DNA from: Candidatus Omnitrophota bacterium
Lineage (GTDB): Bacteria; Omnitrophota; Omnitrophia; Omnitrophales; Aquincolibacteriaceae
Reading direction: 5' to 3'
DNA: 64,000 bases
Assembly: GCA_023247055.1 (NCBI GenBank)
Contig: JAHFHF010000005.1
Span: 18,985 to 82,984, forward strand
The notes beneath the pieces were generated by a model. That model was not told the origin of the DNA and did no database searches. It saw only the letters and a program-made list of their open reading frames with translations. Of the stretch, positions 28,964 to 53,203 are shown one piece after another (positions within the stretch are counted from its first letter, which is position 1; every line of letters begins with the position of its first letter). A program made the position numbers and the translations under genes.

Positions 28964-29064
28964 AAATCAAAAAGCAGCGGTCTCATAAGTTTTTTCGTAA
29001 ACCCCAACGATAGACTCGTCATTGCGAAGCAGCGTTTCACGGAAGCTGAAGCAATCTCGCTGTT

Positions 29065-33939: not shown

Positions 33940-34167
33940 GCAGAATAGAGCCGATATTGAAACATCCACGACACAGCCCATCAGGCTGTGCGTGGACAGT
34001 CTCTGCGATAGACGCAGAGGCAGAATAGAGCCGATATTGAAACATCCACGACACAGCCCATCAGGCTGTGCATGGACAGTCTCTGCGATAGACGCAGAGG
34101 CAGAATAGAGCCGATATTGAAACATCCACGACACAGCCCATCAGGCTGTGCGTGGACAAGTCTCTAC
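33940..34167. repeat. Tandem direct repeat: 80-bp unit x 2.85 (copies start at 33940, 34020 and 34100). Each unit contains two stem-loops.
   Basis: Units are near-identical, with one G/A difference in copy 2 and a truncated, diverged copy 3. Each unit contains CCACGACACAGCC-CATCA-GGCTGTGCGTGG and CTCTGCG-ATAGA-CGCAGAG. The units are contiguous with no spacers. The array lies in the divergent region between the livK start (33874, - strand) and the secreted-protein gene (34218, + strand). Confidence 0.9.
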
Positions 34168-34217
34168 ACTTTGTTTTTTACGGTTGTTATCTCCAAAACG
34201 GATTCAAAGGAGTTTGT

Positions 34218-35012
34218 ATGACGTCTTTTAAAAAAATGGCAGCAATTTTTATCGCAGCAGGACTCTTGATGCCGGCTCATGCGCATGCGGCGGCGCTGGA
34301 AGGTGAAGTTGTCTCGCTGGCCCCTATGGAATCCGGTCTTTGGAAAGTCGTGATCAAGGCAGCGGGCGGTAAGCAAAGTTTGGTTCTTTCTGCAAAAAGT
34401 GCGATCCTGAAAGAAGTCCGGGTCGAAGACATCAAGCAGGGAGACCGGCTGGCCAGCACGAACAGGGGTTCCCAGGGGGGAACCAAGGGACTGAAAGCGC
34501 CTTTTGGAAATATGTCGGCGGGCGCCAAAAAAATGCTGGGGCTTCCCAATGTTCCGAATATTCCGGCAGTTCCCAATATTCCCAACATTCCTAATAAGCA
34601 GCAGATGAAAGGTGTGGCCCCCAAGGGCGGCGGAGCAGCCCCTCAACCCGGCGGTGGGAATCCCGGCGTCCCCCAGCCTGGCGGAGGCAAATCGGCGGCA
34701 AAAGAAGAACCGCCGCCGGTCAAGACCCAGGACGAAATGCTGCAAGAAAAAGGTTTTCAGAATGAAAAGTTGCTTTTCCCGCCCACGGAAGGTGAGATTG
34801 GCCCCGGCGAAGAAGTCACGCAGGTGCGCAAGGTCGACCAAGGCTTTGAAGTAACGCTGCTTTCGAGCACGGGCAAACCGGAGAAACAAACCTATGCGCC
34901 GGGCAAAAAAGTGGTCAAAGTGTTAAGCCCTGGTGATTTGAAGAAAAAAGACCGCGTCAGCCTCGACTTTAATGAGAAGGACAAAACGGTCACTCAATTA
35001 AAAATCAAGTGA
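34218..35012 (+). CDS. Secreted low-complexity protein (signal peptide; Pro/Asn/Ile and Gly/Pro-rich repeats).
   Basis: AAGGAG lies 6 nt upstream of the ATG at 34218. Signal peptide MTSFKKMAAIFIAAGLLMPAHAHAAA; repeats NVPNIPAVPNIPNIPN and GGGAAPQPGGGNPGVPQPGGG. Confidence 0.6.
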   Translation: MTSFKKMAAIFIAAGLLMPAHAHAAALEGEVVSLAPMESGLWKVVIKAAGGKQSLVLSAKSAILKEVRVEDIKQGDRLASTNRGSQGGTKGLKAPFGNMSAGAKKMLGLPNVPNIPAVPNIPNIPNKQQMKGVAPKGGGAAPQPGGGNPGVPQPGGGKSAAKEEPPPVKTQDEMLQEKGFQNEKLLFPPTEGEIGPGEEVTQVRKVDQGFEVTLLSSTGKPEKQTYAPGKKVVKVLSPGDLKKKDRVSLDFNEKDKTVTQLKIK

Positions 35013-35599
35013 CCCGGGTTTGGGCGCTTGCAGCGCTCCTGTTTTTAAGCGGTTGTACCGCGCTTTTTGGATGGAAAATTCACGCGCCCGGCATTCTCTC
35101 ACAAAACTATTACAGCCGCGTCCTGCCGGCCGAAGACCGCATCGCGCTTTATCTGCCTGACGATGTTCTGCATTATGAATCGACTAACCGCGGCGGCGCG
35201 CTTGCGGACCCTCAGACTTATTATGTCGGCGAAGCATTTGCCCCCATGATTTTAGAGGCCTTCCAGCAAGGATTCCGCGAATTTATTTTTTTTGAAGTCG
35301 AACCGGATGCGGCTCTGATGCGGCAATATGGCGTTCAGCGTCTAGCGGTGGTGCGGATCCGGACGTTAAAAAACCGTGTGACGCTGAAGGGTCAAGCGGT
35401 TCAACTCGAAACCGAGACGCGGGTGTATAATGAAGCTTTACAGCCTGTGGCTGCTTTTGAGTCCATGGGAACTAGCGATGCCAAGAAGGTCTTTGCTAAA
35501 AAAGGCGGCCCTGAAATCAATCTCAATGCCGCTATTGAAAACAACGTGACGGCGATTGTGCAGTACCTGCAGGATAAAGTCATGAGTGATGAGTCATGA
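35009..35599 (+). CDS. Hypothetical lipoprotein.
   Basis: GTG start overlapping the upstream stop (GTGA). Signal peptide with lipobox LFLSGC. Confidence 0.5.
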   Translation: MTRVWALAALLFLSGCTALFGWKIHAPGILSQNYYSRVLPAEDRIALYLPDDVLHYESTNRGGALADPQTYYVGEAFAPMILEAFQQGFREFIFFEVEPDAALMRQYGVQRLAVVRIRTLKNRVTLKGQAVQLETETRVYNEALQPVAAFESMGTSDAKKVFAKKGGPEINLNAAIENNVTAIVQYLQDKVMSDES

Positions 35600-36174
35600 G
35601 TGATGAGAAAAGACAACAGACAATAGAGAACAGAAATTGCCCTAAAAAAGGAGCGAAAACGCTTTCTTTCTGTGTTCTGTCCTCTGTTTTCTGTGCTCTG
35701 TACTCTGTTGTTTGTTCTCTCTCTATCTCTTTTGCCGGCGAGGTTATTCCTGAGACGCCCTCAGCCGTGGTGGTGCGCGAGCACCCGCGCACGGGGCATC
35801 CGTATGTCAGTATTGTCGATCCCAAAAAACCGCGAACGGTTTTTAACGGCGAACTTCAGCGCTACAACCGGCCGGATTACCGCATGCTTGAACCCGGTGT
35901 GAAACCGCGCGATGTGGACTATCATGGGCCGGTGAGCAGCCGCAAAAAAGTTTATGTGCTGGCGGGGGTTTTGGCGGCCGGCGGCGTGGCCGGATATGCG
36001 GCTCTGCCGGTGTCTGCGGCCAGCGGTGGTGCTGCAGGCGGGGCTGGGATATATGCGGCAGCCAGTGGCGCCGTGACAGCCGGGACGTTTTCGACGCATT
36101 GGGCCATGAAGCGTGATGACCGGCCGGATGATTTTACGCAGGCTTCTGTGTCCCGTGAATTGAAGTTGTCTTGA
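35596..36174 (+). CDS. Hypothetical membrane protein with a Gly/Ala-rich (glycine-zipper-like) segment.
   Basis: ATG overlaps the previous stop (ATGA). There is one clear TM helix plus a GGVAGYAALPVSAASGGAAGGAGIYAAASGAV segment. Confidence 0.45.
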   Translation: MSDEKRQQTIENRNCPKKGAKTLSFCVLSSVFCALYSVVCSLSISFAGEVIPETPSAVVVREHPRTGHPYVSIVDPKKPRTVFNGELQRYNRPDYRMLEPGVKPRDVDYHGPVSSRKKVYVLAGVLAAGGVAGYAALPVSAASGGAAGGAGIYAAASGAVTAGTFSTHWAMKRDDRPDDFTQASVSRELKLS

Positions 36175-44134: not shown

Positions 44135-44193
44135 CACAAATCACTTTTTAAGGAAACGGGTTCATAAGCCTTCTAAATCTAATCACTGGCTTG

Positions 44194-44292
44194 TCATTGC
44201 GGGCTCTCGCTGTTTTTTTAGCGTGCGCCGAAGCAATCTCAAGAGCAAACGAGATTGCTTCGGCCTCAAATTGAATGTTGCCTCGCAATGAC
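44194..44292. mobile_element. MITE/REP-like element (~100 bp) with terminal inverted repeats GTCATTGCGGGC / GCCTCGCAATGAC and a perfect internal hairpin.
   Basis: Internal 13-bp hairpin CCGAAGCAATCTC-AAGAGCAAAC-GAGATTGCTTCGG. Related copies are at 47592-47685, 47698-47783 and 52056-52146, with a partial copy at 29018-29062. Confidence 0.6.
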
Positions 44293-44470
44293 GAGAATGA
44301 CATGGGATCAACAATCACATGCATGATCGTATTTGCCTCCGCGCAAATGCGAGAATGACATGGGATCAACAATCACATGCATGATCGTATTTGCCTCCGC
44401 GCAAATGCGAGAATGACATGGGATCAACAATCACATGCATGATCGTATTTGCCTCCGCGCAAATGCGAGG
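44283..44470. repeat. Tandem repeat, 58-bp unit x about 3 (period measured between 44341 and 44399), abutting the MITE end.
   Basis: Unit GCGCAAATGCGAGAATGACATGGGATCAACAATCACATGCATGATCGTATTTGCCTCC repeated exactly. The first copy is a variant that contains the MITE terminus (TGCCTCGCAATGACGAGAATGACATGGG). Confidence 0.85.
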
Positions 44471-44523
44471 CAGCGGCTAGAGTTACAGGGACTTATGAAA
44501 CCGGCTCCTTGTGACTTTTAAAT

Positions 44524-45318
44524 ATGCGAACTCCCATCAAAAAAATTTACGATATGAAAGCCCAAAAGGAAAAAATCGCCGTGCTCACGGCCTATGATTT
44601 TCCCATGGCCCGGATTTTGGATGAGGCGGGCGTGGATGTCATTCTGGTGGGCGATTCGTTGGGCATGGTCGTGCTGGGATATGAAAGCACGGTGCCTGTG
44701 ACCATGCGCGATATGCTGCATCATACGCGGGCGGTTGCGCGCGCCGTGCGCAAAGCGGTGGTGGTGGCTGACATGCCCTTTGGTTCTTATGACATCCCTG
44801 AACGCGCGCTGCGTAACGCGTTGCGGCTGATCAAAGAGGGCGGTGCGGATGCGGTCAAACTCGAAGGCGGACAAACGATTGAAAAACAAGTTGCGCATCT
44901 TGTCCATGCGGGCGTGCCGGTCATGGGGCATGTGGGCATGACCCCTCAGACGGCAACCCGGCTCGGCGGTTACCGCGTGCAGGGCCGTGACTCCAAGCAG
45001 GCCGCTCAAATTTTAAAAGACGCGCTGCTTTTGGAGCGGCTGGGTGCTTTTTCAGTGGTGTTGGAATGCGTGCCGGGACCGTTGGCGCAGAAAATCACCC
45101 GCAAATTGAAGTGCCCAACGATTGGTATTGGCGCAGGCATTCACGCGGACGGTCAAGTGCTTGTGCTCAATGACATGCTGGGTTTGGAAAGCAGTGTACG
45201 GCCGCGGTTTGTGCGGCAGTACGCGCAGTTTGGCAAAGCCGCGCGCAAAGCCGCGCTGGTTTACATCCGCGATGTGAAGGAAAGTAAATTTCCAACTGTG
45301 GAAGAGAGTTTTCATTGA
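44524..45318 (+). CDS. panB: 3-methyl-2-oxobutanoate hydroxymethyltransferase (ketopantoate hydroxymethyltransferase).
   Basis: KEKIAVLTAYDFPMARILDEAGVDVILVGDSLGMV... is the canonical PanB sequence. An alternative ATG lies at 44554. Confidence 0.9.
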   Translation: MRTPIKKIYDMKAQKEKIAVLTAYDFPMARILDEAGVDVILVGDSLGMVVLGYESTVPVTMRDMLHHTRAVARAVRKAVVVADMPFGSYDIPERALRNALRLIKEGGADAVKLEGGQTIEKQVAHLVHAGVPVMGHVGMTPQTATRLGGYRVQGRDSKQAAQILKDALLLERLGAFSVVLECVPGPLAQKITRKLKCPTIGIGAGIHADGQVLVLNDMLGLESSVRPRFVRQYAQFGKAARKAALVYIRDVKESKFPTVEESFH

Positions 45319-46766
45319 GTAAAGATAAAGCTGCTCATATTGTTGTTGCGGACAAAGACGCCGATGTCTGTGACCTGGTGGCAACGCGGCTTTCCAACCG
45401 CGGCTTCCGCATCAGTATGGCCGGGACCATGGAAGAATTGCTGCGCCATCTTGACCGCGACCCGCCGGTCCTGATTCTGGTGTCTTCCGAGATGGAGCGC
45501 CTGGGCGGCCGCCACCCGGTTGAAAAAATCCGCGAAAAAACGCATTTGGCCGCTGTGCCGGTGATTTTGCTGACGCGTGAAAGCGAAATTGCCGAGTTGA
45601 TTCTGGGGCAGGACCGCGGTTTTGACGACTTTCTGATCAAGCCGTTCAGCCCGCTTATTTTACAGCTGCGGGTCGCGCTCAATATGAGCCGCGCGCGCAT
45701 TCGCAGCGATGCCAATGCGTTGACGCATTTGCCAGGCAATGCGGCGATTGAGAAAACCATTAAAACGAAAATCGAACGCGGCGAAAAATTTTCCGTGCTC
45801 TATATCGACATCAATCAATTTAAGGCGTTTAACGACCGCTATGGCTTTGAAAAAGGCGATGACGTGCTGAAACATACGGCCAAACTTTTGACGCACACGC
45901 GCGAAAAAACACGGGGCTGCGAAGATTGTTTCGTAGGACACATTGGCGGCGATGATTTTATCGTGGTCTTGCCGCCGGAACATGAAGAAACATTTGCGCG
46001 AACGTTTATTCAGGAGTTTGACAGCGTGATGCTGTCCTATTACAGCGATGCGGACCGCAGCCGGGGCCATGTGCGTCTGACCAACCGGCGCGGCAAACGT
46101 GAAAATATTCCGCTGATGTCGTGTTCGGTCGCCGCTTGCAATAATGTTTACCGCCCTTATAAAAACCTGGGTGAGATTGCACGCGATGCCGCTGAGGTCA
46201 AAAGTTTTCTGAAATCGCAGACAGGCAGCCACTATCTGCGAGACCGGCGGTCGGAACCGATTGCGCGGCTTGATACCGCGGTCGAAATTTTATCTCCCGA
46301 AGTCGAGGCGCTCGGAAGCCGCGCCAAAGATTCAGATCCCCTGGGGCGGGTGCTCGTGAATGCCGGCCTGCTTACGGAAGAACAGCTTGAACTAGCCATC
46401 AAACGCCACCTCGAAACGCGCCAGCGGCTGGGCCAGACGCTGATTGCTATGAATTTGGTTTCCAGCCAGGATGTGGGGCGGATGCTGGAAAAAAAATTGC
46501 GGGTGCCGTATGTGAGTTTGGCCCAAGCCCGCATTGCGCGCGAAACGCTGCGGATTTTTACGGTGGATTTTATGCGCTCGCACCGCGTTGTGCCCCTCTC
46601 CGCATCCGGCGCGCGCCTGAAGCTGGCCATGTGCGACCCGTTTGACCTTAAAACTTTAGACGCCATTGAACGCGTCAGCCAATACAAACCCGAGCCGTGC
46701 CTTGCGCTCGAAGACGAGTTTGAATCGTTTATCGAAAGCTACGGTCCTTCCGAGAGGACCGCATGA
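45315..46766 (+). CDS. Multidomain signalling protein: degenerate receiver (REC) domain, GGDEF-family domain (GGDDF variant) and a C-terminal MshEN / T2SS-E N-terminal-like (c-di-GMP-binding) domain.
   Basis: TTG start overlapping the panB stop. The REC-like N-terminus lacks the phospho-acceptor Asp (VLILVSSEMERLGG). The GGDEF-like core is FKAFNDRYGFEKGDDVL...GHIGGDDFIVVL. The C-terminal ~110 aa (LGRVLVNAGLLTEEQLELAI...FDLKTLDAIERVSQ) resembles the GSPII_E N-terminal/MshEN fold. Confidence 0.6.
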   Translation: MSKDKAAHIVVADKDADVCDLVATRLSNRGFRISMAGTMEELLRHLDRDPPVLILVSSEMERLGGRHPVEKIREKTHLAAVPVILLTRESEIAELILGQDRGFDDFLIKPFSPLILQLRVALNMSRARIRSDANALTHLPGNAAIEKTIKTKIERGEKFSVLYIDINQFKAFNDRYGFEKGDDVLKHTAKLLTHTREKTRGCEDCFVGHIGGDDFIVVLPPEHEETFARTFIQEFDSVMLSYYSDADRSRGHVRLTNRRGKRENIPLMSCSVAACNNVYRPYKNLGEIARDAAEVKSFLKSQTGSHYLRDRRSEPIARLDTAVEILSPEVEALGSRAKDSDPLGRVLVNAGLLTEEQLELAIKRHLETRQRLGQTLIAMNLVSSQDVGRMLEKKLRVPYVSLAQARIARETLRIFTVDFMRSHRVVPLSASGARLKLAMCDPFDLKTLDAIERVSQYKPEPCLALEDEFESFIESYGPSERTA

Positions 46767-47584
46767 GCGTTTCCAGAATCATTCTGGCTTTCGCCGCCTT
46801 TTTTTACGGCGCTGCGTTTCTGCTGCATCTGATGTCTTTTTTCGGCCAGCGTGAAAACAACCGTGCCGCGTCCCGTCTGATGCAAACCGGTTTTACCGCG
46901 GCGACGTTTTATTTCATGGTTGAGGCGGCCACGCTGGCAACGTTCTTCCCCGTTGCAGACATCTCACATGCCCTGGCCTTTTTTGCCTGGTCTCTGGCAT
47001 TCGTCTATCTTGTCCCGCTTTCCCATATCCGCAGTGATTCTTTTGGTCTGGTCCTTACGCCGGTGTTGACGCTGCTTGTGAGCGCGGCTGCGCTAACGGC
47101 GGTTTTGCCCGCCAAAGGTGCTCTGCCGCCGGCCAGTCCATTTTTTATGCTGCATATCTTGTGTGCTTTTTTTGCCTATGCCAGTTTCACCATTTCGTTT
47201 GCCGCCGGCCTGCTTTATTTGATCCAGCGTCATGAACTTAAAGCACGCCGGACGGGCGCGTTTTACCACAAACTGCCGTCACTGGAAGAGTTGGAAAGAC
47301 TCATCGACCAGCCCATGCTTTGGGGCGCTGCGCTGCTGGTGGCCGCTATTGCGATCGGGTTTGTCTGGTCAAAGACGGCGTTTGGCATGTATTCGCTCAC
47401 CGATCCCAAGACGATTGCCACCGGCATTGTGACTTTGATTTACGGAATGATTCTCGGCCTGCGTCTCGGCGCCCGTCTGCGGGCCAAGCACGCAGCGGTC
47501 TTAAGCGTTGCCGCGTTTGCACTGGTGATTCTGAGTTTCGTAGGCATGCGTTTTATTCAAGGCAGCCATAATTTTTTAGCGTAG
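46763..47584 (+). CDS. CcsA-like cytochrome c assembly family membrane protein (HemX-like, as found in hem operons).
   Basis: Eight-TM protein with CcsA-family character directly upstream of hemA; compare B. subtilis hemAXCDBL. Confidence 0.55.
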   Translation: MSVSRIILAFAAFFYGAAFLLHLMSFFGQRENNRAASRLMQTGFTAATFYFMVEAATLATFFPVADISHALAFFAWSLAFVYLVPLSHIRSDSFGLVLTPVLTLLVSAAALTAVLPAKGALPPASPFFMLHILCAFFAYASFTISFAAGLLYLIQRHELKARRTGAFYHKLPSLEELERLIDQPMLWGAALLVAAIAIGFVWSKTAFGMYSLTDPKTIATGIVTLIYGMILGLRLGARLRAKHAAVLSVAAFALVILSFVGMRFIQGSHNFLA

Positions 47585-47591
47585 ATTTTTG

Positions 47592-47783
47592 GCATTGCGA
47601 GGCAGCGAGGCACTAAAACTGAATCGGTCTCAATGAGATTGCTTCGACGTCCGTTGAATGTTGTCTCGCAATGACAAAAAAAGTGGTCCTTTGTCATTGC
47701 GAAGCAGTGAGGCATTAAGGCTGAAGCAATCCCAATGAGATTGCTTTGGCTTCAATGGGTACGCCGCCTCGCAATGACAAAGT
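47592..47783. mobile_element. Two tandem copies of the GTCATTGCG-type MITE/REP-like element (47592-47685 and 47698-47783).
   Basis: Each copy has CATTGCGAGGCAG...GAGATTGCTT...CTCGCAATGAC architecture, with an internal GAAGCAATC/GAGATTGCTT palindrome. Confidence 0.6.
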
Positions 47784-47818
47784 GTGAGAATGAAAATTCA
47801 GGAATAAAATAAAATCAT

Positions 47819-47965
47819 ATGGGATTATTCGTCATTGGATTGAATCATAAAGAATGCCCCGTGGAAGTGCACGAACGCCTGCCCCTGCGCTTTTGTTTGC
47901 GCAGGGGCTGTGCCTCGGCGGCCAATGAAGCTGCCGTAGGCATAAAGCCGTTCGCTAAAATTTAG
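47819..47965 (+). other. Upstream mini-ORF (48 aa) formed by a diverged duplication of the hemA 5' end, with a strong internal hairpin.
   Basis: ATGGGATTATTCGTCATTGGATTGAATCATAAAGAATGCCCCGTGGAAGTGCACGAACGCCTGC... mirrors the hemA start ATGGGACTTTTTGTCATTGGTTTGAATCACAAGGAATGTCCGGTTGAGGTGCGCGAACGCCTGC..., then diverges into the hairpin CCCCTGCGC-TTTTGTTT-GCGCAGGGG. It stops at TAG (47963-47965), 6 nt before the real hemA ATG. Confidence 0.6.
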
Positions 47966-47971
47966 GAATTT

Positions 47972-49246
47972 ATGGGACTTTTTGTCATTGGTTTGAATCA
48001 CAAGGAATGTCCGGTTGAGGTGCGCGAACGCCTGCATTTTTCTGCGCAGCTTGCGGAGAAGGCCTTGACGGCCATGAAAGAAGCCGGCGATATTTCTGAA
48101 TTTGCGCTTTTGTCGACCTGCAACCGGGTGGAATTTTACGGTTACACGGAACAAGGGCAGCCCCGCGAGGCGGTCCTGGCGCTGATCGAAAGCCTGCACG
48201 GCATCCGCCGCAATGAATTTGAGCATTTTCTTTATCTGCATGAATCCAAAGATGCGGTGCGGCATCTGTTCCGCGTGGCCGCGGGGCTTGATTCGCTGGT
48301 CGTCGGCGAAAATGAAATTCTCGGTCAGCTGCGCGATGCCTTTAAAGCCGCCAATCAGGCGGGCACGATCCATTCACTGCTTTACCGCCTGATGGAAAAA
48401 GCGCTCAAGACCGGCAAGGAAGTGCAGACACGCACCAAGATTGCTCAAGGGGCGGTCAGTATTCCTGCCGTGGCCGTCGAATTGGCGGAAAAAATTTTCG
48501 GGACTTTGTCCGGAGAAAAAGTCATGGTGCTTGGGACCGGTGAAATGAGCGTGCTGACGCTGAAAAATTTACGCACCGCCGGGGCCGATATCGCCTATAT
48601 CGCGAGCCGTAATGAAGAAAAAGGCCGCGCGTTGGCCAAGGAATATGGCGCTATTTGGCTGTCCATGGAAGAGTGGCAGCGCGAACTGACCGGCGTGGAT
48701 ATTTTGATTGCCTCCACAGCTGCTCCGTATCCCATTGTCCTTAAAACGCATGTGGCTGGGGTCATGGCCGCGCGGCGCAGGCGGCCTGTTTTTTTAATTG
48801 ATATTGCGGTGCCGCGCAACATCGAGCCTGAAGTCAACCAGATCGACGACGTTTTTCTCTACAATGTCGATGACCTCAAAGGCGTCTCCGCTGCCAACCT
48901 AAAATTGCGCCGCGGTGAAATCCGGGCGGCCGACGACATTGTCGACCAGGCCGTGATCCAGTTTCAATCGTGGTTTGAACAACTTGCCGCGCGTCCGACG
49001 GTCGAGCGTTTTGAAGAATTTCTGGAACAAGTCCTGCAGGCCGAGTTTGCGGAACTGGCGCGCGAAACCGGACTGTGCGAAGAACGCAAACAGCAGATCA
49101 TGAACCGTTTGAAAGCGAAGATTCTCCACCGGCCGTTTGAAAAGATCAAAGAAGCCTCCAAAAACGGCGGCGTCAAAAAACACGTCGAAGCGCTGCATTC
49201 ATTGTTCAATTTGGATACCGATCAAGCACCGAGCACCAAGCACTGA
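47972..49246 (+). CDS. hemA: Glutamyl-tRNA reductase.
   Basis: MGLFVIGLNHKECPVEVRERL..., the catalytic Cys region LSTCNRVEFY and NAD-binding GTGEMS are all canonical HemA. Confidence 0.92.
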   Translation: MGLFVIGLNHKECPVEVRERLHFSAQLAEKALTAMKEAGDISEFALLSTCNRVEFYGYTEQGQPREAVLALIESLHGIRRNEFEHFLYLHESKDAVRHLFRVAAGLDSLVVGENEILGQLRDAFKAANQAGTIHSLLYRLMEKALKTGKEVQTRTKIAQGAVSIPAVAVELAEKIFGTLSGEKVMVLGTGEMSVLTLKNLRTAGADIAYIASRNEEKGRALAKEYGAIWLSMEEWQRELTGVDILIASTAAPYPIVLKTHVAGVMAARRRRPVFLIDIAVPRNIEPEVNQIDDVFLYNVDDLKGVSAANLKLRRGEIRAADDIVDQAVIQFQSWFEQLAARPTVERFEEFLEQVLQAEFAELARETGLCEERKQQIMNRLKAKILHRPFEKIKEASKNGGVKKHVEALHSLFNLDTDQAPSTKH

Positions 49247-49391
49247 GTTTTGAGCGCTAAGCCGTAAACGAGCGGCGGATAATTTTTTGCGCCTGCAAAA
49301 CATTTTCCTCTATGAAAAATTTAAAAACTTATTTTTTGTTCTCTCGGTGCTTAGTGCTCGGTGCTCAGGGCTTGGTGCTCGGTGCTTTCTC

Positions 49392-50330
49392 ATGAAAACC
49401 CGCGTTAGAATCGGAACGCGCGGCAGCGCCCTCGCCCTCTACCAGGCTGAGTTATTCAAAAACAAACTGGCCAATGATTTTTCCATGGTTGCTTTTGAGC
49501 TGGTTGTTATTAAAACAGCGGGAGATGTTCGGGGCACGCGTAGTATGCGCGGCGGCGACGATAGCAAAACACTCTTTACGCGCGAAATCGAAGAAGCGCT
49601 GCTGTGTGAAGACATTGATCTGGCCGTCCATAGCGCCAAAGACCTTGCCGCCGTCATGCCGCGTGGACTTCGGATCGGGGCTGTTCTTGAACGTGAAGAC
49701 CCGCGCGACTGTCTGGTCGCCCGCAAAAATATTCCTTTGGCCCATCTTGAATCCGGTGCGCGGATCGGCACCAGTGCACTGCGCCGCAAGGCCCAGCTTT
49801 TGCGCTTTAATCAGGATTTGGTGATCGAGGAATTGCATGGCAATGTGGACACGCGCGTTAAAAAAGCCCTGCAAGGTGATTTCGACGCCATTGTGCTTGC
49901 GCATGCGGGTTTGAAGCGGCTCGGCTTGGTCGATCATGTTTCTGAAATTTTTGACGCAGAACGTTTTTTACCAGCGCCCGGTCAGGGCATTATCCTTGCC
50001 CAAATCCGGCAGGGTGATGCCCAAACCCAGGCGTTGCTCGAGCCGGTCAATCACAAACCGACTCTGACGCGGCTCGTCTGCGAGCGCGCTTTTCTCAAGC
50101 GGCTAGGCGGCGGCTGCCAACTGCCCTGCGGCATGCTGACCGAATTGACACCCGGAAAATTAAAAGCCCGTGGCATTCTGTTGATGCCGGACGGTTCGCA
50201 TTGTATTGAGCGTGAAATTGAAGACCCCGGCGGCGACCCTGAAGCCACCGGCATGGAACTTGCCGAAATAATTCTTGAAGAAGGCGGCAGGAAGATCTTA
50301 AATGCCATTGAAAAAAGTAATGAGGCCTGA
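49392..50330 (+). CDS. hemC: Porphobilinogen deaminase (hydroxymethylbilane synthase).
   Basis: MKTRVRIGTRGSALALYQAE... is canonical HemC. The track ORF starts at 49287, but the first in-frame ATG matching the HemC N-terminus is at 49392. Confidence 0.9.
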   Translation: MKTRVRIGTRGSALALYQAELFKNKLANDFSMVAFELVVIKTAGDVRGTRSMRGGDDSKTLFTREIEEALLCEDIDLAVHSAKDLAAVMPRGLRIGAVLEREDPRDCLVARKNIPLAHLESGARIGTSALRRKAQLLRFNQDLVIEELHGNVDTRVKKALQGDFDAIVLAHAGLKRLGLVDHVSEIFDAERFLPAPGQGIILAQIRQGDAQTQALLEPVNHKPTLTRLVCERAFLKRLGGGCQLPCGMLTELTPGKLKARGILLMPDGSHCIEREIEDPGGDPEATGMELAEIILEEGGRKILNAIEKSNEA

Positions 50331-50441
50331 GTGATGAGCCACGAGAAAAAATAATGCAAAATAAAAACGGTGAGGCAGATTCTTTTTTCCCTCTCTGCTC
50401 ATTCCTTGTTACTCATTGCTCGTTGCTCATGGCGCTGCCTT

Positions 50442-51947
50442 ATGAAAGGTAAAGTCTATCTCGCCGGCGCCGGACCCGGCGACCCGGGCCTTATCACGGT
50501 CACGGCTGCGCGGCTGCTTGAAGAAGCGGATGCGGTGGTCTATGACGGCCTGGTCAATCCGGTTCTGATTGAAAAGCTTGCCGCTGAAAAGTGGAACGTC
50601 AGCAAACACTTCCCTGTGCGTACGGCCAGGCACGGTGCCGATCAGACCCGCATTAATCAACTGCTTGTCAAGCTGGCGCGCCAGGGCAAGAACGTGGTGC
50701 GTCTTAAAGGCGGAGACCCGTTTATTTTTGGCCGTGGCGGGGAAGAAGCCTCTTTTTTAAAAAAGCATGGCATTGCTTTTGAAGTCGTGCCCGGGGTCAG
50801 TGCCGGACAGAGTGTTCCGGCCTATGCGGGTATTCCGGTTACCGACCGGCGTTTTGTTTCCAGTGTTACCTTTGTGACCAGCCATGAAGATCCGTCTAAG
50901 AAAAACAGCCTGGACTGGAATGCAGTCGCGCGGCTGGGCGGCACGCTGGTTTTTTTTATGGGCTGGAAAAATCTGGCAGAGGTTTCGCGCCGCCTGATCC
51001 GGGAAGGTTTGTCCGGCCGGACGCCCAGCGCGGCGATCCAATGGGGCACCTTGCCGGAGCAGAAGGTTGTGGAGGGGTCTTTAAAAGATATTGCTGCAAA
51101 AGTGCGGCGCGCGGATCTGCGTCCGCCTGCGCTGATCGTGGTCGGTAAGACCACGGGACTGCGCCGCGAACTGCAATGGTACGAAAAGAAACCGCTTTTT
51201 GGAAAAAAGATCGTGATCACCCGGCCTGAACATCAGAATGCCGCGCTGGCGGCGCTGCTGCGCGAACAGGGCGCAAACGTGATCGAATGTCCTGTTATCC
51301 GCATTCTTCCGCCCAAAAATTTTAAAGAGCTCGACAAGGCCTTGTGCCAACTCGACCTTTATGACTGGGTCCTTTTTGCAAGCACGAATGCCGCCGGTTT
51401 TTTCTTCAGCCGTCTTCACGCCCTTGGACTGGATACGCGCGTTTTGCGCGGCGTGAGCATTGCGGCCATGGGCCCCGCGACCGCGGCTTTTCTGGCCAGC
51501 CGGGGCGTGCGGGCTGATTTTGTGCCGACGCGTTTTGAAACAGGGGCGTTTGTGACGGCTTTGAAACGTAAAAAAGCCATTCAGGGAAAACATGTCTTGC
51601 TGCCCAGGACGGACATTGCTCCGCCGGATTTAAAACAAAGGTTGGAAAAGGTGGGAGCGAAGGTCACGACCGTGACAGCTTACCGCACGGTGCAGGACGC
51701 CGGTGTGCGTGCGCACCTGCGGCAGGTTGTGCAAGGGCCGCTGCCGGATGCCGTTCTTTTCGCCAGTGCGTCGTCCGTACGTTATTTTTTTCGTGCGCTG
51801 CCCCGCAAATTCTGGGGTAAAATGCGCGGCCGTTTGGTTTCGATCGGGCCGGCCACGACCGCGGCTTTGAAAGAACTCGGCCTGCGGCCGAAGGCGGAAG
51901 CGAAGTACCATACGGCGCAAGGACTGGTTAAAGCCATCCAGCAATAG
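50442..51947 (+). CDS. Fused uroporphyrinogen-III C-methyltransferase (CobA/SUMT) and uroporphyrinogen-III synthase (HemD).
   Basis: N-terminus VYLAGAGPGDPGLITV...VVRLKGGDPFIFGRGGEE is the SUMT signature. The C-terminal ~250 aa (KIVITRPEHQNAALAALL...) is HemD-like. Confidence 0.85.
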   Translation: MKGKVYLAGAGPGDPGLITVTAARLLEEADAVVYDGLVNPVLIEKLAAEKWNVSKHFPVRTARHGADQTRINQLLVKLARQGKNVVRLKGGDPFIFGRGGEEASFLKKHGIAFEVVPGVSAGQSVPAYAGIPVTDRRFVSSVTFVTSHEDPSKKNSLDWNAVARLGGTLVFFMGWKNLAEVSRRLIREGLSGRTPSAAIQWGTLPEQKVVEGSLKDIAAKVRRADLRPPALIVVGKTTGLRRELQWYEKKPLFGKKIVITRPEHQNAALAALLREQGANVIECPVIRILPPKNFKELDKALCQLDLYDWVLFASTNAAGFFFSRLHALGLDTRVLRGVSIAAMGPATAAFLASRGVRADFVPTRFETGAFVTALKRKKAIQGKHVLLPRTDIAPPDLKQRLEKVGAKVTTVTAYRTVQDAGVRAHLRQVVQGPLPDAVLFASASSVRYFFRALPRKFWGKMRGRLVSIGPATTAALKELGLRPKAEAKYHTAQGLVKAIQQ

Positions 51948-52055
51948 CGGTAAGAAGTAAAATATAAACGCGCCTCATCATTGCTCCCAACACCCATGTG
52001 TTGGAATTACGTAGGGCCTGAGGCATGCCTGAACCCTACGACTTGAGATTACTTC

Positions 52056-52146
52056 GTCATTGCGGGCAACGTTCACTTTGATGCCGAAGCAATCTCGGTT
52101 GCTTTTGGGATTGCTTCAGCTTCAGTGGAATGCCGCTTCGCAATGA
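52056..52146. mobile_element. GTCATTGCG-type MITE/REP-like element copy between cobA/hemD and hemB.
   Basis: GTCATTGCGGGCAACG...GCCGAAGCAATCTCGGTTGCTTTTGGGATTGCTTCAGC...GCCGCTTCGCAATGATG. Confidence 0.55.
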
Positions 52147-52177
52147 TGAAACGGCGCTTGGGCATCATCAGAGTGCG

Positions 52178-53203
52178 ATGAAAAAAAATAAAATAAAACC
52201 GTTTGATTTTCAATTTCCGGATTACCGGCCGCGGCGCATTCGCAGCCATGCGGTTTTGCGCAGCCTTCTGTGCGAGACACGTTTTGCGCCCGAACAACTG
52301 ATCATGCCTTATTTTGTGCGGGCGGGACACGGCGTCAAAGAATCCATCACGGCCATGCCGGGCCAATTCCGGTTTTCACCGGACACATTGCTGACAGAGT
52401 TGGACTCGCTGGCTGCCGGCGGCGTGCGCGCCCTCCTGCTTTTCGGGCTGACGGACTCTAAAGATAAAAAAGCCAGAGGCGCTTATGCGAAGACCGGAAT
52501 CATTCCGCAGACAATCCGTGCGGTAAAAAAGAAATTCCCCAAGCTGGCGGTCATCACCGATGTCTGCCTGTGTGCCTATACGAGCCACGGCCATTGCGGT
52601 CTTTTAAACGGCCGGGGTGAAATTGACAATGACGCTTCACTGCCGGTGCTGGCCAAAATGGCGCTTGCGCACGCGGAAGCCGGCGCCGATATGGTCTCGC
52701 CCAGCGATATGATGGACGGCCGTATTAAAGTCATCCGGCAAGTTCTCGACCGCCGGGGTTTTAAATCACTGCCTCTGATGAGTTATGCGGCTAAATACAA
52801 CTCGGCTTTTTACGGGCCTTTCCGCGAGGCCGCCCATTCAGCGCCTGGCCAAGGAAAAAATAGTCCCAAAGACCGCAAAAGTTATCAGATGGAACCTGCT
52901 AACCGCGAGGAGGCCCTGCGCGAAATTGCGCTCGACATTCGCGAGGGCGCGGACATCGTCATGGTAAAACCGGCGCTGGCTTATCTCGATATTCTGCGCG
53001 AAGCCAAAGAGAGGTTTCATTTTCCGCTGGCAGGGTATTTTGTGAGCGGGGAATATGCCATGATTAAGGCTGCGGCAGAAAAAGGCTGGCTGGATGAAAA
53101 GCAGGCCGTGCTCGAAGCTTTGACTGCCGTGTTTCGCGCAGGTGCCGATACCGTCATTACTTACCATGCTAAAGCCGCCGCATGCTGGCTGAACAGCCGT
53201 TAA
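52178..53203 (+). CDS. hemB: Porphobilinogen synthase (delta-aminolevulinate dehydratase).
   Basis: Canonical HemB, including the zinc-site region CLCAYTSHGHCG and the active-site Lys region. Confidence 0.92.
   Translation: MKKNKIKPFDFQFPDYRPRRIRSHAVLRSLLCETRFAPEQLIMPYFVRAGHGVKESITAMPGQFRFSPDTLLTELDSLAAGGVRALLLFGLTDSKDKKARGAYAKTGIIPQTIRAVKKKFPKLAVITDVCLCAYTSHGHCGLLNGRGEIDNDASLPVLAKMALAHAEAGADMVSPSDMMDGRIKVIRQVLDRRGFKSLPLMSYAAKYNSAFYGPFREAAHSAPGQGKNSPKDRKSYQMEPANREEALREIALDIREGADIVMVKPALAYLDILREAKERFHFPLAGYFVSGEYAMIKAAAEKGWLDEKQAVLEALTAVFRAGADTVITYHAKAAACWLNSR

What the first reader, a model, noticed from the sequence alone, without database searches (positions are those of the whole stretch)
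44194..52146. Dispersed MITE/REP-like element family with terminal inverted repeats GTCATTGCGRGGC and an internal GAAGCAATC palindrome
There are four full copies and one partial copy. They lie at 44194-44292 (before panB), 47592-47685 and 47698-47783 (tandem, before hemA), 52056-52146 (between cobA/hemD and hemB) and 29018-29062 (partial, between the convergent mscS and livF genes). All are intergenic and all share the same ~90-100 bp architecture, with inverted termini and a central perfect hairpin. They break up the hem cluster, and in two places they sit directly upstream of start codons.
Basis: seen in the sequence. Interest (0 to 1): 0.55.

Follow-up and report, generated by a model that had tools for sequence, protein, structure and literature searches.

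The report
Hairpin repeats tied to Ssn nucleases
The five short repeats are real, gene-less copies of a palindromic DNA element found across many bacterial phyla, and elsewhere the full form carries a tiny GIY-YIG single-strand DNA nuclease gene in its central loop, so this is an unreported variant of a repeat/nuclease pairing first described in 2025.

Summary
There are four full copies (44193-44292, 47591-47675, 47693-47778, 52056-52147) and one left half (29018-29062). A profile built only from other organisms' copies finds exactly these five in the 64 kb window.

The host is a Candidatus Omnitrophota genome. Two syntenic relatives (HemA 87% identical) have the same gene order and no copy, so these are lineage-specific insertions into operon spacers.

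The family is not local. The architecture is YGTCATTGCGAG – variable module – GAAGCAATC – loop – GATTGCTTC – variable module – CTCGCAATGACR. There is no target-site duplication.

Elsewhere, 94-96 aa GIY-YIG genes sit in the central loop. Of 80 metagenomic homologues, 45 have both halves adjacent and 67 have at least one. These nucleases are 47% identical to a 94-aa Neisseria gonorrhoeae gene that sits among NTS repeats and is probably ssnA.

The closest known kinds are CGTC-tagged REPs (Di Nocera 2013) and Ssn/SRM elements (Chenal 2025). This composite form fails the published SRM motif. I call it a new variant of a known kind. How it moves and what it does here are inferred. No nuclease gene lies in the window.

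The parts
44192..44293 (.). Copy c1, full element of 100 nt plus the flanking T/G tag bases, lying between folD and panB. The outer stem is 44193-44204 with 44282-44292. The central stem is CCGAAGCAATCTC (44228-44240) with GAGATTGCTTCGG (44251-44263). The left module forms its own small hairpin (GCTGTTTTTTTAGC).
   Evidence: Sequence. Fold of -47.6 kcal/mol, z = -6.5. nhmmer E = 1.3e-13 with a profile built from other organisms' copies. The folD|panB spacer is 60 nt in L123 and 2 nt in L124, against 389 nt here.
47590..47676 (.). Copy c2, full but decayed element (85 nt). It starts 7 nt after the stop codon of the ccsB-like gene. The left terminus is GGCATTGCG and the left central arm is GAATCGGTC, both mutated.
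   Evidence: Fold of -31.8 kcal/mol, z = -3.5. nhmmer E = 1.4e-8.
47692..47779 (.). Copy c3, full element (86 nt), in tandem with c2 after a 17-nt spacer. It lies 40 nt upstream of a 48-codon upstream ORF that precedes hemA.
   Evidence: Fold of -42.2 kcal/mol, z = -6.2. nhmmer E = 1.2e-11. Upstream ORF.
52055..52148 (.). Copy c4, full element (92 nt), between cobA/hemD (stop at 51947) and hemB (ATG at 52178). The right terminus is CGCAATGAT, one change from consensus.
   Evidence: Fold of -45.1 kcal/mol, z = -6.0. nhmmer E = 5.6e-12. The relatives have 60-nt spacers at this junction and no element.
29017..29062 (+). Copy c5, a solitary left half-unit (CGTC-ATTGCGAAGC...GAAGCAAT-CTCG) between the convergent genes mscS and livF. 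It has no right half.
   Evidence: nhmmer E = 4e-5, matching model positions 3-45 only. It does not fold significantly on its own, z = -1.2. Solitary halves are common family-wide: 58 halves against 143 full elements in the loci.

Best explanation
SHOWN.
- The five sequences are gene-less members of a palindromic repeat family that spans many bacterial phyla.
- Each full copy consists of two inverted half-units.
- A half-unit reads 5'-(C/T)GTC-ATTGCGAG-[variable module]-GAAGCAAT-C(Y)N-3'.
- This is the same grammar as CGTC-tagged REPs and the Neisseria NTS/Ssn-related motifs: a GTC tag, a stem that starts with AT and ends with AT, then a C.
- Here the two arms of one half are not complementary to each other. 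ATTGCGAG pairs with the far CTCGCAAT, and GAAGCAAT pairs with the central ATTGCTTC.
- The pair of halves therefore folds as one long hairpin, or as a 3- to 4-way junction when the modules form their own hairpins.
- In other genomes and metagenomes the same termini and central stem enclose a 94-96 aa single-domain GIY-YIG gene in the loop.
- That gene is homologous to a 94-aa Neisseria gonorrhoeae gene that sits among canonical NTS repeats. I take that gene to be ssnA from its length and setting. I could not compare sequences.
- In this Omnitrophota lineage the copies were inserted into spacers of the folD-panB and hem operons. Two syntenic relatives lack them.

INFERRED.
- The elements are non-autonomous partners of an Ssn-type site-specific single-strand DNA nuclease.
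- When the DNA is single-stranded (replication, repair or uptake), the nuclease would bind each half-unit.
- By analogy with N. meningitidis SsnA it would nick a few nucleotides 5' of the YGTC tag. That places a nick just outside the element on each strand.
- Copying or excision would then depend on host repair.
- This would explain the absence of target-site duplications and the sharp Y|GTC...GAC|R boundaries.
- In this window the copies look old (64-74% identical to one another; c2 is decayed). They are probably passengers.
- Their main present effect would be strong hairpins inside polycistronic transcripts.
For: Identity and breadth.
- The hits span Alpha-, Gamma- and Deltaproteobacteria, Campylobacterota, Chloroflexota, Bacteroidota, Cyanobacteria, Planctomycetota, Omnitrophota, Nitrospirota, Spirochaetes, Firmicutes, Atribacterota, CPR and others.
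- A profile built from these copies finds exactly the five window copies.

Anatomy.
- In an alignment of 94 elements, 94% of cells are paired, against 31-47% when the partner columns are slid.
- Covariation is seen at the outer Y:R pair (CG 35, UA 32, UG 13) and at three pairs that extend the central stem.
- The outer stem closes in 142 of 146 unique elements. Median length is 83.5 nt and median fold energy is -44.8 kcal/mol. 86 fold as single hairpins and 52 as multi-hairpin junctions.

Boundaries.
- Position -1 is a pyrimidine in 94% of elements and position +1 is a purine in 98%. There is no other flank motif.
- Direct repeats in the flanks occur at chance level.

Insertion.
- L123 and L124 (HemA 87% identical, same gene order) have no element in 19-21 kb and have tight junctions.

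Nuclease link.
- In L151 the sequence reads GTCATTGCGaggaacgaagtgacGAAGCAATCcag-gaaaaagt-ATG...(94 aa)...TAG-ctgGATTGCTTCgctaacgctCGCAATGAC. L148 (Pelotomaculum) shows the same arrangement.
- Extended ORF calls read into the element halves, for example SLRGAKRRSNP..., CEERSDEAIQ... and ...LDCHGAKAPRNDG.
- Of 80 metagenomic homologues, 45 have both halves within 130 nt, 13 have only the right half, 9 have only the left half, 12 have neither, and one lacked enough flank to score.
- The protein has the GIY-YIG domain (Pfam E = 4e-17) and invariant Y, Y, R, H, E residues.
- P0216 is 94 aa, with Y6, Y17 and E64. These are the residue numbers mutated in N. meningitidis SsnA (PMC11893778).
- P0216 is 46.7% identical over 96% of its length to a 94-aa N. 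gonorrhoeae gene flanked by CGTCATTCCCGCGCAGGCGGGAATC repeats.

Biochemistry of the family (from the paper, not tested here).
- Ssn enzymes bind their hairpin as single-stranded DNA only and cut a few nucleotides upstream.
- The GTC is critical for cutting and the C after the palindrome is critical for binding.
- The paper calls the NTS-ssnA-NTS arrangement IS-like.

Genomic context.
- Of 122 elements, 69 lie between co-directional genes, 14 between convergent genes and 6 between divergent genes. This is the REP-like pattern.
Against: - There is no GIY-YIG gene in the window, in L001, or in 1.18 Mb of element-bearing loci, apart from the one in L075. Whether this genome encodes the enzyme is unknown.
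- GIY-YIG nucleases are hydrolytic and no strand-transfer chemistry is known for them. A complete transposition mechanism is therefore missing.
- The gene could instead be an invader of pre-existing repeats (homing into loops) rather than their mobiliser. The direction of the relationship (ORF loss or ORF gain) was not resolved.
- The half-units and the flanks of all 80 nuclease genes fail the published SRM degenerate motif.
- One half alone forms only a 5-bp ATTGC/GCAAT stem plus its module. Recognition by an Ssn enzyme is therefore an extrapolation.
- The window copies are as diverged from each other as from copies in other phyla, so there is no sign of recent activity here.
- Assignment of the nuclease to CDD cd10448 could not be run.
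Confidence: 0.62

Rival explanations
1. The repeats are domesticated recognition sites rather than selfish DNA. As proposed for NTS in Neisseria, the host would keep them as landmarks where an Ssn-type nuclease cuts single-stranded DNA. This would modulate recombination or transformation around particular operons. This view partly overlaps with the best explanation.
For: In N. meningitidis, SsnA and NTS reduce integration of NTS-bearing transforming DNA about 5-fold, and NTS repeats cluster around particular genes (PMC11893778). Four of the five window copies lie within 8 kb, around the panB and hem operons. The conserved blocks stay intact while the modules diverge.
Against: Two close syntenic relatives do without any copy at the same junctions. 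c2 is decaying. No nuclease gene is seen nearby. The nearly identical sequence blocks across about 20 phyla fit horizontal spread better than independent domestication.
Confidence: 0.2
2. The element is a REPIN-type element mobilised by a RAYT (an IS200/IS605-like HUH tyrosine transposase), like GTAG-tagged REP doublets.
For: It is a doublet of inverted units forming a hairpin. It has no target-site duplication. Its placement is extragenic and mostly downstream of genes. These are the hallmarks of REPINs (PMC3116915 and PMC3337134, listed).
Against: The tag is YGTC, not GTAG. The literature reports that no RAYT gene is flanked by CGTC-type repeats (PMC3733652). All-against-all clustering of 2,548 ORFs from 120 element-bearing loci found no recurrent neighbouring family other than generic ones. 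The gene actually nested in the element is a GIY-YIG nuclease.
Confidence: 0.06
3. The element is a classical MITE, an internal-deletion derivative of a DDE-type insertion sequence that is moved in trans by cut-and-paste.
For: It has 12-13 bp terminal inverted repeats, is small, occurs in many dispersed intergenic copies, and shows presence/absence between relatives.
Against: Flanking direct repeats of 2-6 bp occur at chance frequency in 91 elements. No transposase-like family recurs near the elements. The whole element is a structured palindrome with covarying internal stems.
Confidence: 0.04
4. The element is primarily a functional RNA (terminator, attenuator, mRNA-stabilising hairpin or small RNA) that selection maintains on the transcript.
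For: The predicted RNA hairpins are very stable. The copies lie inside or at the ends of operons, mostly between co-directional or convergent genes. c4 ends 30 nt from the hemB start codon.
Against: There is no Rfam match at the gathering threshold, or at E <= 10 apart from noise. No T-tract follows the stems, and the promoter/terminator scan shows nothing specific. The element is multi-copy and patchy, and is absent at the same junctions in relatives. Ssn enzymes do not bind RNA. An incidental RNA effect is still likely.
Confidence: 0.07
5. The copies are local segmental duplications confined to this region.
For: c2 and c3 are in tandem, and four copies lie within 8 kb.
Against: A profile from unrelated phyla recognises every copy. 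The copies are 64-74% identical to each other, no closer than to foreign copies.
Confidence: 0.01

Closest known systems
Ssn-related motifs (SRM/NTS) and the Ssn family of GIY-YIG single-strand DNA nucleases (Chenal et al. 2025, Nat Commun 16:2388, PMC11893778)
   Same: - Both are hairpin repeats with a 5' (C/T)GTC tag, a stem beginning ATT and ending AAT, then a C.
- Both occur in hundreds of intergenic copies.
- Both are associated with a roughly 94-aa single-domain GIY-YIG gene. The clade found here is 46.7% identical to a 94-aa N. gonorrhoeae gene that sits among NTS repeats and is probably ssnA.
- The gene-plus-repeat arrangement is IS-like.
   Different: - The stem sequences differ (ATTGCGAG and GAAGCAAT, against ATTCCCGC and GCGGGAAT).
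- The two arms of a unit are not mutually complementary, so two units must pair across each other.
- The nuclease gene lies inside the central loop of one composite element rather than between separate hairpins.
- The published degenerate SRM motif matches none of the window copies, none of the consensus forms, and none of the 80 loci of this nuclease clade.
- Cleavage has not been tested.
CGTC-tagged REP superfamily (Di Nocera, De Gregorio & Rocco 2013, BMC Genomics 14:522, PMC3733652). It includes Neisseria dRS3 and Rickettsia RPE-4 and RPE-6.
   Same: - The tag is CGTC or TGTC.
- The first and last stem positions are AT.
- A C-rich tail follows.
- Placement is extragenic, between co-directional or convergent genes.
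- Frequent dimers can fold as one large stem-loop.
- No RAYT partner is known.
- Canonical members co-occur with the composite element in the same loci, for example Tisiphia L022 and L039.
   Different: - The described units are simple hairpins with 8-9 bp stems and 4-5 nt loops.
- The dimers described are mainly head-to-head.
- Here the unit is interrupted by a variable module, and the dimer has its tags pointing outward and is obligatory.
- The distribution reported in 2013 was 5 phyla. Here many more are seen.
REPINs and RAYTs (Bertels & Rainey 2011)
   Same: Both have two inverted REP units forming a hairpin. Both are non-autonomous and lack target-site duplications. Both pair with a small nuclease-type gene that is flanked by or embedded in the repeats.
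   Different: The partner enzyme is a hydrolytic GIY-YIG nuclease, not an HUH tyrosine enzyme. The tag is YGTC, not GTAG. RAYTs are single-copy and inherited vertically, whereas this nuclease clade is 70-89% identical across distant taxa and often sits on short contigs.
Free-standing and intron-borne GIY-YIG homing endonuclease genes (for example I-TevI and the Seg proteins)
   Same: A GIY-YIG nuclease gene is nested in a selfish or neutral sequence whose gene-less version is abundant. This is the geometry expected for homing.
   Different: The protein has no DNA-binding extension. NCBIfam gives only a sub-threshold match to the group I intron endonuclease model (23.7 bits against a cut-off of 56). 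Characterised relatives cut single-stranded DNA, not double-stranded DNA.

Membership tests
CGTC-tagged REP superfamily (Di Nocera 2013) | An unpaired terminal tag, CGTC (or TGTC or CCTC), at one end of the palindrome | tested here: met
   Window ends: c1 TGTC and GACG, c3 TGTC and GACA, c4 CGTC and GATG, c5 CGTC, c2 TGGC (decayed) and GACA. Family-wide, position -1 is C or T in 94% and position +1 is G or A in 98%.
CGTC-tagged REP superfamily (Di Nocera 2013) | The stem starts with complementary A and T residues in its first two positions | tested here: met
   ATTGCGAG.../...CTCGCAAT and ...GAAGCAAT/ATTGCTTC....
CGTC-tagged REP superfamily (Di Nocera 2013) | A simple hairpin with an 8-9 bp stem and a 4-5 nt loop, followed by a tail of about CCA | tested here: not met
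   Within a half-unit only ATTGC/GCAAT (5 bp) are complementary. The 8-11 bp stems form between halves, across about 60 nt. The tail is CTC or CCC here and CCA(G) in alphaproteobacterial copies. Canonical simple hairpins exist in other loci but not in the window.
Ssn-related motif (SRM/NTS; Chenal 2025) | Matches the published degenerate motif HGTCWYN(0-2)YYVSBRHN(0-5)WNVSBRGN(0-2)RNCYNB | tested here: not met
   There are 0 hits in the window, in the half-units c1, c3, c4 and c5, in the two consensus forms, and in the 80 GIY-YIG loci. The NTS control matches.
Ssn-related motif (SRM/NTS; Chenal 2025) | The repeat is found next to genes of the Ssn nuclease family | tested here: met
   This holds at family level. 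Of 80 homologues, 45 have both halves adjacent and 67 have at least one. The exact nesting is shown in L148 and L151. It does not hold in this window, where there is no GIY-YIG gene.
Ssn-related motif (SRM/NTS; Chenal 2025) | GTC upstream of the palindrome (needed for cutting) and a C immediately after it (needed for binding) | tested here: met
   GTC-ATTGC...GCAAT-C is present in c1, c3, c4 and c5 and in the right half of c2. These columns are nearly invariant in the alignment of 94 elements, although part of that is due to how the loci were selected.
Ssn-related motif (SRM/NTS; Chenal 2025) | Bound and cut by its Ssn enzyme as single-stranded DNA only, a few nucleotides upstream of the tag | not testable with these tools
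   This needs biochemistry.
Ssn nuclease family (CDD cd10448), for the gene found in full-length relatives | A single-domain GIY-YIG protein of about 94 aa, homologous to Neisseria SsnA | tested here: met
   The proteins are 94-96 aa. Pfam PF01541 matches at E = 4e-17. The catalytic Y, Y, R, H, E residues are invariant. P0216 is 46.7% identical over 96% of its length to a 94-aa N. gonorrhoeae gene flanked by NTS repeats. The CDD assignment itself could not be run, and calling the gonococcal gene ssnA rests on its length and setting.
MITE (IS-derived, DDE-mobilised) | Target-site duplication flanking the terminal inverted repeats | tested here: not met
   Matching flanks of 2, 3, 4, 5 and 6 nt were found in 5, 2, 0, 0 and 0 of 91 elements. 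The chance expectation is 5.7, 1.4, 0.36, 0.09 and 0.02.
REPIN/RAYT | Association with a RAYT (Y1 HUH) gene flanked by the repeats | tested here: inconclusive
   No recurrent neighbouring protein family was found in 120 loci, and the literature reports none for CGTC repeats. I did not run a dedicated RAYT profile search.

The most novel reading that the evidence does not exclude
The composite element with the gene in its loop would be the autonomous form of a new class of prokaryotic mobile element. Its only protein would be a 94-aa hydrolytic GIY-YIG single-strand DNA nuclease. It would spread by nicking just outside each YGTC tag on single-stranded or extruded hairpin DNA, followed by host-mediated copying. 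That mechanism would be distinct from DDE, HUH, serine, tyrosine and Cas1 transposition. The window copies would be its gene-less derivatives. It would also be the long-sought mobiliser of CGTC-tagged REPs.
Probability: 0.3. Interest if true: 0.8.

Novelty: new variant of a known kind. Interest (0 to 1): 0.5.

Why it matters
CGTC-tagged palindromic repeats have been catalogued since 2013 with no known mobilising enzyme. In 2025 the Ssn nucleases were shown to bind such hairpins, but the authors left open whether the gene-plus-repeat unit is a mobile element.

The family seen here adds four things.
- It is a sequence variant that the published search motif misses.
- In this variant the nuclease gene sits exactly inside the loop of an element whose gene-less form is about 170 times more common in the sampled loci.
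- Its conserved blocks are almost identical across about 20 phyla.
- Syntenic genomes give a clean case of presence against absence.

Together these make the question of whether Ssn/SRM units are mobile elements, and how they move, directly testable. The elements also explain a large class of spurious 'hypothetical proteins' that arise when ORF callers read through them. One search shows such read-through peptides (CEERSDEAIQ..., SLRGAKRRSNP......APRNDG). That they are widespread in databases is my own recollection, not something I measured.

For this genome itself the finding is modest. The copies are old passenger insertions that add strong hairpins to the folD-panB and hem operon transcripts.

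Tried and rejected
- Rfam gave no family at the gathering threshold for the whole window. At E <= 10 for 44.1-52.3 kb it gave only noise.
- Full-text searches for the element's DNA strings and their translations found only unrelated primers.
- Clustering of all ORFs in 120 element-bearing loci, to find a recurrent neighbouring enzyme, found nothing specific. A first regular-expression screen for GIY-YIG found only one gene, in L075. That single case became the lead.
- The target-site duplication and flank-motif tests were negative beyond the Y/R tag.
- The viral contig scans found only 23 element-bearing stretches and 5 distant nuclease relatives, so phages are not the main carrier.
- I suspected that L001 differs from the window in the copy number of the 58-nt tandem repeat. 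It does not. The apparent difference was a different panB start call.
- I looked for canonical simple CGTC hairpins in the window and found none convincing. A first version of that script was faulty and returned nothing.
- I tested whether the window copies are a recent local burst. They are not, at 64-74% identity.
- A 2024 survey of prokaryotic MITEs (PMC11602168) does not mention GIY-YIG or endonucleases. The 2006 GIY-YIG phylogenomic survey (PMC1564403) does not mention the COG2827 or YhbQ names and draws no link to repeats.
- Two context look-ups (P0006, P0007) failed for technical reasons.
- I did not use structure prediction or the large representative search, because they would not bear on the question.

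Full report
**1. The observation**

- The four full copies are c1 44193-44292, c2 47591-47675, c3 47693-47778 and c4 52056-52147.
- The left half is c5, 29018 to about 29062.
The other three agree to within 1 nt.

Exact or one-mismatch matches to GTCATTGCGRRGC occur only at element ends. Exact GAAGCAATC occurs only inside the elements. The full copies fold as long hairpins of -32 to -48 kcal/mol, z = -3.5 to -6.5. The half copy does not fold significantly.

An nhmmer profile built from 79 copies of other organisms, with the window excluded, finds these five loci at E = 1e-13 to 4e-5 and nothing else below E = 1. The list is therefore complete for the window and is far beyond chance.

Some details need correcting:
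- The central hairpin is perfect only in c1 and c4.
- c2 has a mutated left terminus and a mutated left central arm.
- Only c4 is close to a true start codon, ending 30 nt before the hemB ATG at 52178.
- c3 ends 40 nt before a 48-codon upstream ORF, not before hemA.
- c1 ends 232 nt before panB.

**2. Host and context**

HemA's best named relatives are Candidatus Omnitrophota. The window matches a metagenome contig, ENA ERZ27280021.

The gene order is folD | c1 + a 58-nt x3 tandem array | panB, RR-GGDEF-MshEN, ccsB-like | c2 c3 | upstream ORF | hemA, hemC, cobA/hemD | c4 | hemB. Separately, c5 lies between the convergent genes mscS and livF.

Two syntenic relatives, L123 and L124 (HemA 87% identical), have the same order but no element in 19-21 kb.

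| Junction | L123 | L124 | Window |
|---|---|---|---|
| folD\|panB spacer | 60 nt | 2 nt | 389 nt |
| hemD\|hemB spacer | 60 nt | 60 nt | about 230 nt |

. The copies are therefore insertions in this lineage, or losses in both relatives, which is less parsimonious. They do break up otherwise tight operons.

**3. The family is pan-bacterial**

The record titles name:
- Alpha-, Gamma- and Deltaproteobacteria and Campylobacteraceae
- Rickettsiales (Tisiphia)
- Chloroflexota and Bacteroidota
- Ignavibacteriota, Calditrichota and Zixibacteria
- Cyanobacteria (Nostoc, Okeania)
- Planctomycetota, Omnitrophota and Nitrospirota
- Spirochaetaceae, Pelosinus and Caldatribacterium
- Gemmatimonadota, Binatia and Peregrinibacteria

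and others.

The consensus architecture is Y-GTCATTGCGAG-[module]-C-GAAGCAATC-(about 3 covarying pairs)-loop-GATTGCTTC-G-[module]-CTCGCAATGAC-R.

In the alignment of 94 elements, 94% of cells are paired, against 31-47% when the partner columns are slid. Covariation is concentrated at the outer Y:R pair and at the three pairs that extend the central stem. The inner stems are almost invariant, and part of that comes from how the loci were selected.

Of 146 unique elements, the outer stem closes in 142. 86 are single hairpins. 52 have extra hairpins formed by the variable modules, giving 3- to 4-way junctions.

There is no target-site duplication and no flank motif beyond Y at -1 and R at +1. Elements lie mostly between co-directional genes (69) or convergent genes (14), and rarely between divergent genes (6). 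Solitary halves like c5 are common, with 58 halves against 143 full elements.

The window copies are only 64-74% identical to one another. This is no closer than to copies in other phyla. They are old, and c2 is decaying.

**4. The partner gene**

Unbiased clustering of neighbouring ORFs gave nothing. One locus, L075 (a Campylobacteraceae MAG), had a 96-aa GIY-YIG ORF embedded in a mosaic of elements.

Its homologues are very numerous. 7,952 of the 8,000 scored candidates had E <= 1e-10. The best 120 are 70-89% identical, the few named ones come from Campylobacterota and several Clostridia lineages, and many sit on contigs shorter than 2 kb.

ORF calls that run beyond the gene read straight into element halves:
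- Upstream: SLRGAKRRSNP..., CEERSDEAIQ..., VIARSEATKQS...
- Downstream...LDCHGAKAPRNDG

On DNA the nesting is exact. L151 reads GTCATTGCGaggaacgaagtgacGAAGCAATCcag-gaaaaagt-ATG...94 codons...TAG-ctgGATTGCTTCgctaacgctCGCAATGAC. L148 (Pelotomaculum) shows the same arrangement.

In 80 metagenomic loci fetched by protein homology:

| Flanking halves within 130 nt | Loci |
|---|---|
| Left half upstream and right half downstream | 45 |
| Right half only | 13 |
| Left half only | 9 |
| Neither | 12 |
| Too little flank to score | 1 |

Some alphaproteobacterial-type loci have the gene between two complete small elements instead.

Conversely, 1.18 Mb of element-bearing loci hold about 170 gene-less elements and only one such gene. 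There is none in the window, L001, L123 or L124.

**5. What is already known**

Di Nocera et al. 2013 (PMC3733652) defined CGTC-tagged REPs. The features are a CGTC or TGTC tag, a stem that starts with AT, an 8-9 bp stem, a 4-5 nt loop and a tail of about CCA. The units are often dimers, and no dedicated transposase is known. Neisseria dRS3 and Rickettsia RPE-4 and RPE-6 are members. Canonical members of this kind co-occur with the composite element in my loci, for example CGTC-ATTCCCGC-GCAG-GCGGGAAT-CCAG and TGTC-ATTCCTGC-GAAA-GCAGGAAT-CTAGA in Tisiphia.

Chenal et al. 2025 (PMC11893778) reported the following:
- The roughly 94-aa GIY-YIG proteins of CDD cd10448 (Ssn) bind the hairpin repeat NTS, CGTCATTCCCGCGMAVGCGGGAATCYRG.
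- They bind it as single-stranded DNA only, and they cut a few nucleotides upstream.
- The GTC is needed for cutting and the C after the palindrome is needed for binding.
- 71% of ssnA homologues have such motifs nearby.
- The NTS-ssnA-NTS arrangement looks like an insertion sequence.

The nuclease clade found here belongs with them. The proteins are 94-96 aa with a single GIY-YIG domain. P0216 has Y6, Y17 and E64 at the positions mutated in SsnA. It is 46.7% identical over 96% of its length to a 94-aa N. gonorrhoeae gene that is flanked by canonical NTS repeats.

Calling that gonococcal gene ssnA rests on its length and setting, not on a sequence comparison. I could not run CDD.

**6. How this case differs**

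Each half-unit keeps the grammar (Y)GTC-ATT...AAT-C, but its two arms (ATTGCGAG and GAAGCAAT) are not complementary to each other beyond ATTGC/GCAAT. ATTGCGAG pairs with the distal CTCGCAAT, and GAAGCAAT pairs with the central ATTGCTTC. Two inverted units therefore form one obligate composite with their tags pointing outward, and the nuclease gene occupies its loop when present.

The published degenerate SRM motif matches none of the window copies, none of the consensus forms, and none of the 80 loci of this nuclease clade. It does match the NTS control.

A sibling variant flanks a 62%-identical GIY-YIG gene on a Planktothrix plasmid (GTCATTCTGAG...GAAGAATCTC / GAGATCCTTC...CAGGATGAC). This suggests that nuclease and repeat co-vary as pairs.

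I therefore rate this as a new variant of a known kind. It is not a new kind and not merely another member.

**7. Mechanism, and what is inferred**

The following are shown:
- family membership
- the structure
- insertion relative to the syntenic relatives
- absence of target-site duplications
- nesting of an Ssn-like gene in full-length relatives

The rest is inferred from the Neisseria biochemistry. An Ssn-type enzyme would bind each half-unit on single-stranded DNA and nick a few nucleotides 5' of YGTC. That places a nick just outside the element on each strand, which fits the sharp Y|GTC...GAC|R boundaries.

GIY-YIG enzymes are hydrolytic, so rejoining or copying would have to be done by the host. 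How new loci are colonised remains unexplained. The gene could also be a homing invader of pre-existing repeats.

A domesticated role, as landmarks for restricting single-stranded DNA as in Neisseria, cannot be excluded. In this window the copies most likely act only as strong hairpins in operon transcripts. There is no T-tract and there are no promoter-like features, and there is no Rfam family.

**8. Verdict**

The element belongs to the CGTC-REP and Ssn-related world, which was described in 2013 and 2025. It is an unreported composite variant with very wide distribution. Interest is moderate (0.5). The most novel reading that the evidence does not exclude is that this is the autonomous and non-autonomous pair of a GIY-YIG-driven mobile element class. 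I give that about 0.3 probability.

Noticed in passing
window 44287-44469: A 58-nt tandem array (3.1 copies, 99% identical) starts inside the right terminus of c1. The end of each unit (TTTGCCTCCGCGCAAATGC) resembles the element's right terminus (GTTGCCTCGCAATGAC). The array may therefore have grown by duplicating the terminus plus the downstream DNA. L001 has the same copy number.
   Followed up: partly
window 47819-47965; L123 9737-10000: A 48-codon upstream ORF before hemA repeats the first 19 residues or so of HemA (MGLFVIGLNHKECPVEV.ERL). It is followed by a hairpin, CCCCTGCGC...GCGCAGGGG. Relative L123 has two tandem copies of a shorter version of this leader, and L124 has none. It may be a leader-peptide regulator of hemA or a remnant of a duplication.
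   Followed up: partly
window 33940-34165: An 80-nt tandem repeat (2.8 copies, 97% identical) lies in an intergenic region upstream of the ORF at 34152-35012. It is unrelated to the element.
   Followed up: no
window 4-23757: A single open reading frame of at least 7,917 codons runs off the start of the window. The 9-copy 'repeat' GCCCGCTCCGAARTGCGG (558...22820) lies inside it, so it is a coding repeat of a giant protein. A second giant gene (3,510 aa in L001) starts downstream of the hem cluster.
   Followed up: partly
window 49224-49262 / 49349-49387; also 32575, 35571-35636, 50316: There are heptamer-type low-complexity repeats. A 39-nt inverted pair (85% complementary, CTCGGTG-like units) sits at the hemA|hemC junction. 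AGTGATGAGTCATGAG-type repeats occur at three other intergenic sites. Relative L124 has similar CACGACT heptamers before hemB.
   Followed up: no
L245 (Planktothrix agardhii plasmid NZ_LR882964.1, 18259-19713): A GIY-YIG gene that is 62% identical to P0216 sits between an MmeI-type restriction-modification gene and the DISARM gene drmA. It is flanked by a sibling repeat family (GTCATTCTGAG...GAAGAATCTC / GAGATCCTTC...CAGGATGAC), including stacked solitary termini.
   Followed up: partly
L244 (NZ_CP119140.1) and NZ_CP119142.1: Two records in the plasmid collection are 2.17 Mb long and are evidently Neisseria gonorrhoeae chromosomes. Their 94-aa GIY-YIG gene lies among canonical NTS repeats.
   Followed up: partly
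L151 versus L154 (the same dprA-GIY-YIG-topA locus from different samples): There are population-level differences next to the nuclease gene. L151 has an extra left half-unit plus spacer upstream. It also has an 87-nt insertion that starts with GTCATTGCGAGG downstream, bounded by a short direct repeat (ACAACCC). This hints at ongoing rearrangement at these cassettes.
   Followed up: no
L018 2729-2849; L167, L176, L179, L184, L190, L226 upstream regions: Solitary left termini (GTCATTGCGA...) are stacked two to four times, 17-45 nt apart, immediately upstream of a complete element or gene-bearing unit. They could be footprints of repeated insertion or excision at the same boundary.
   Followed up: no
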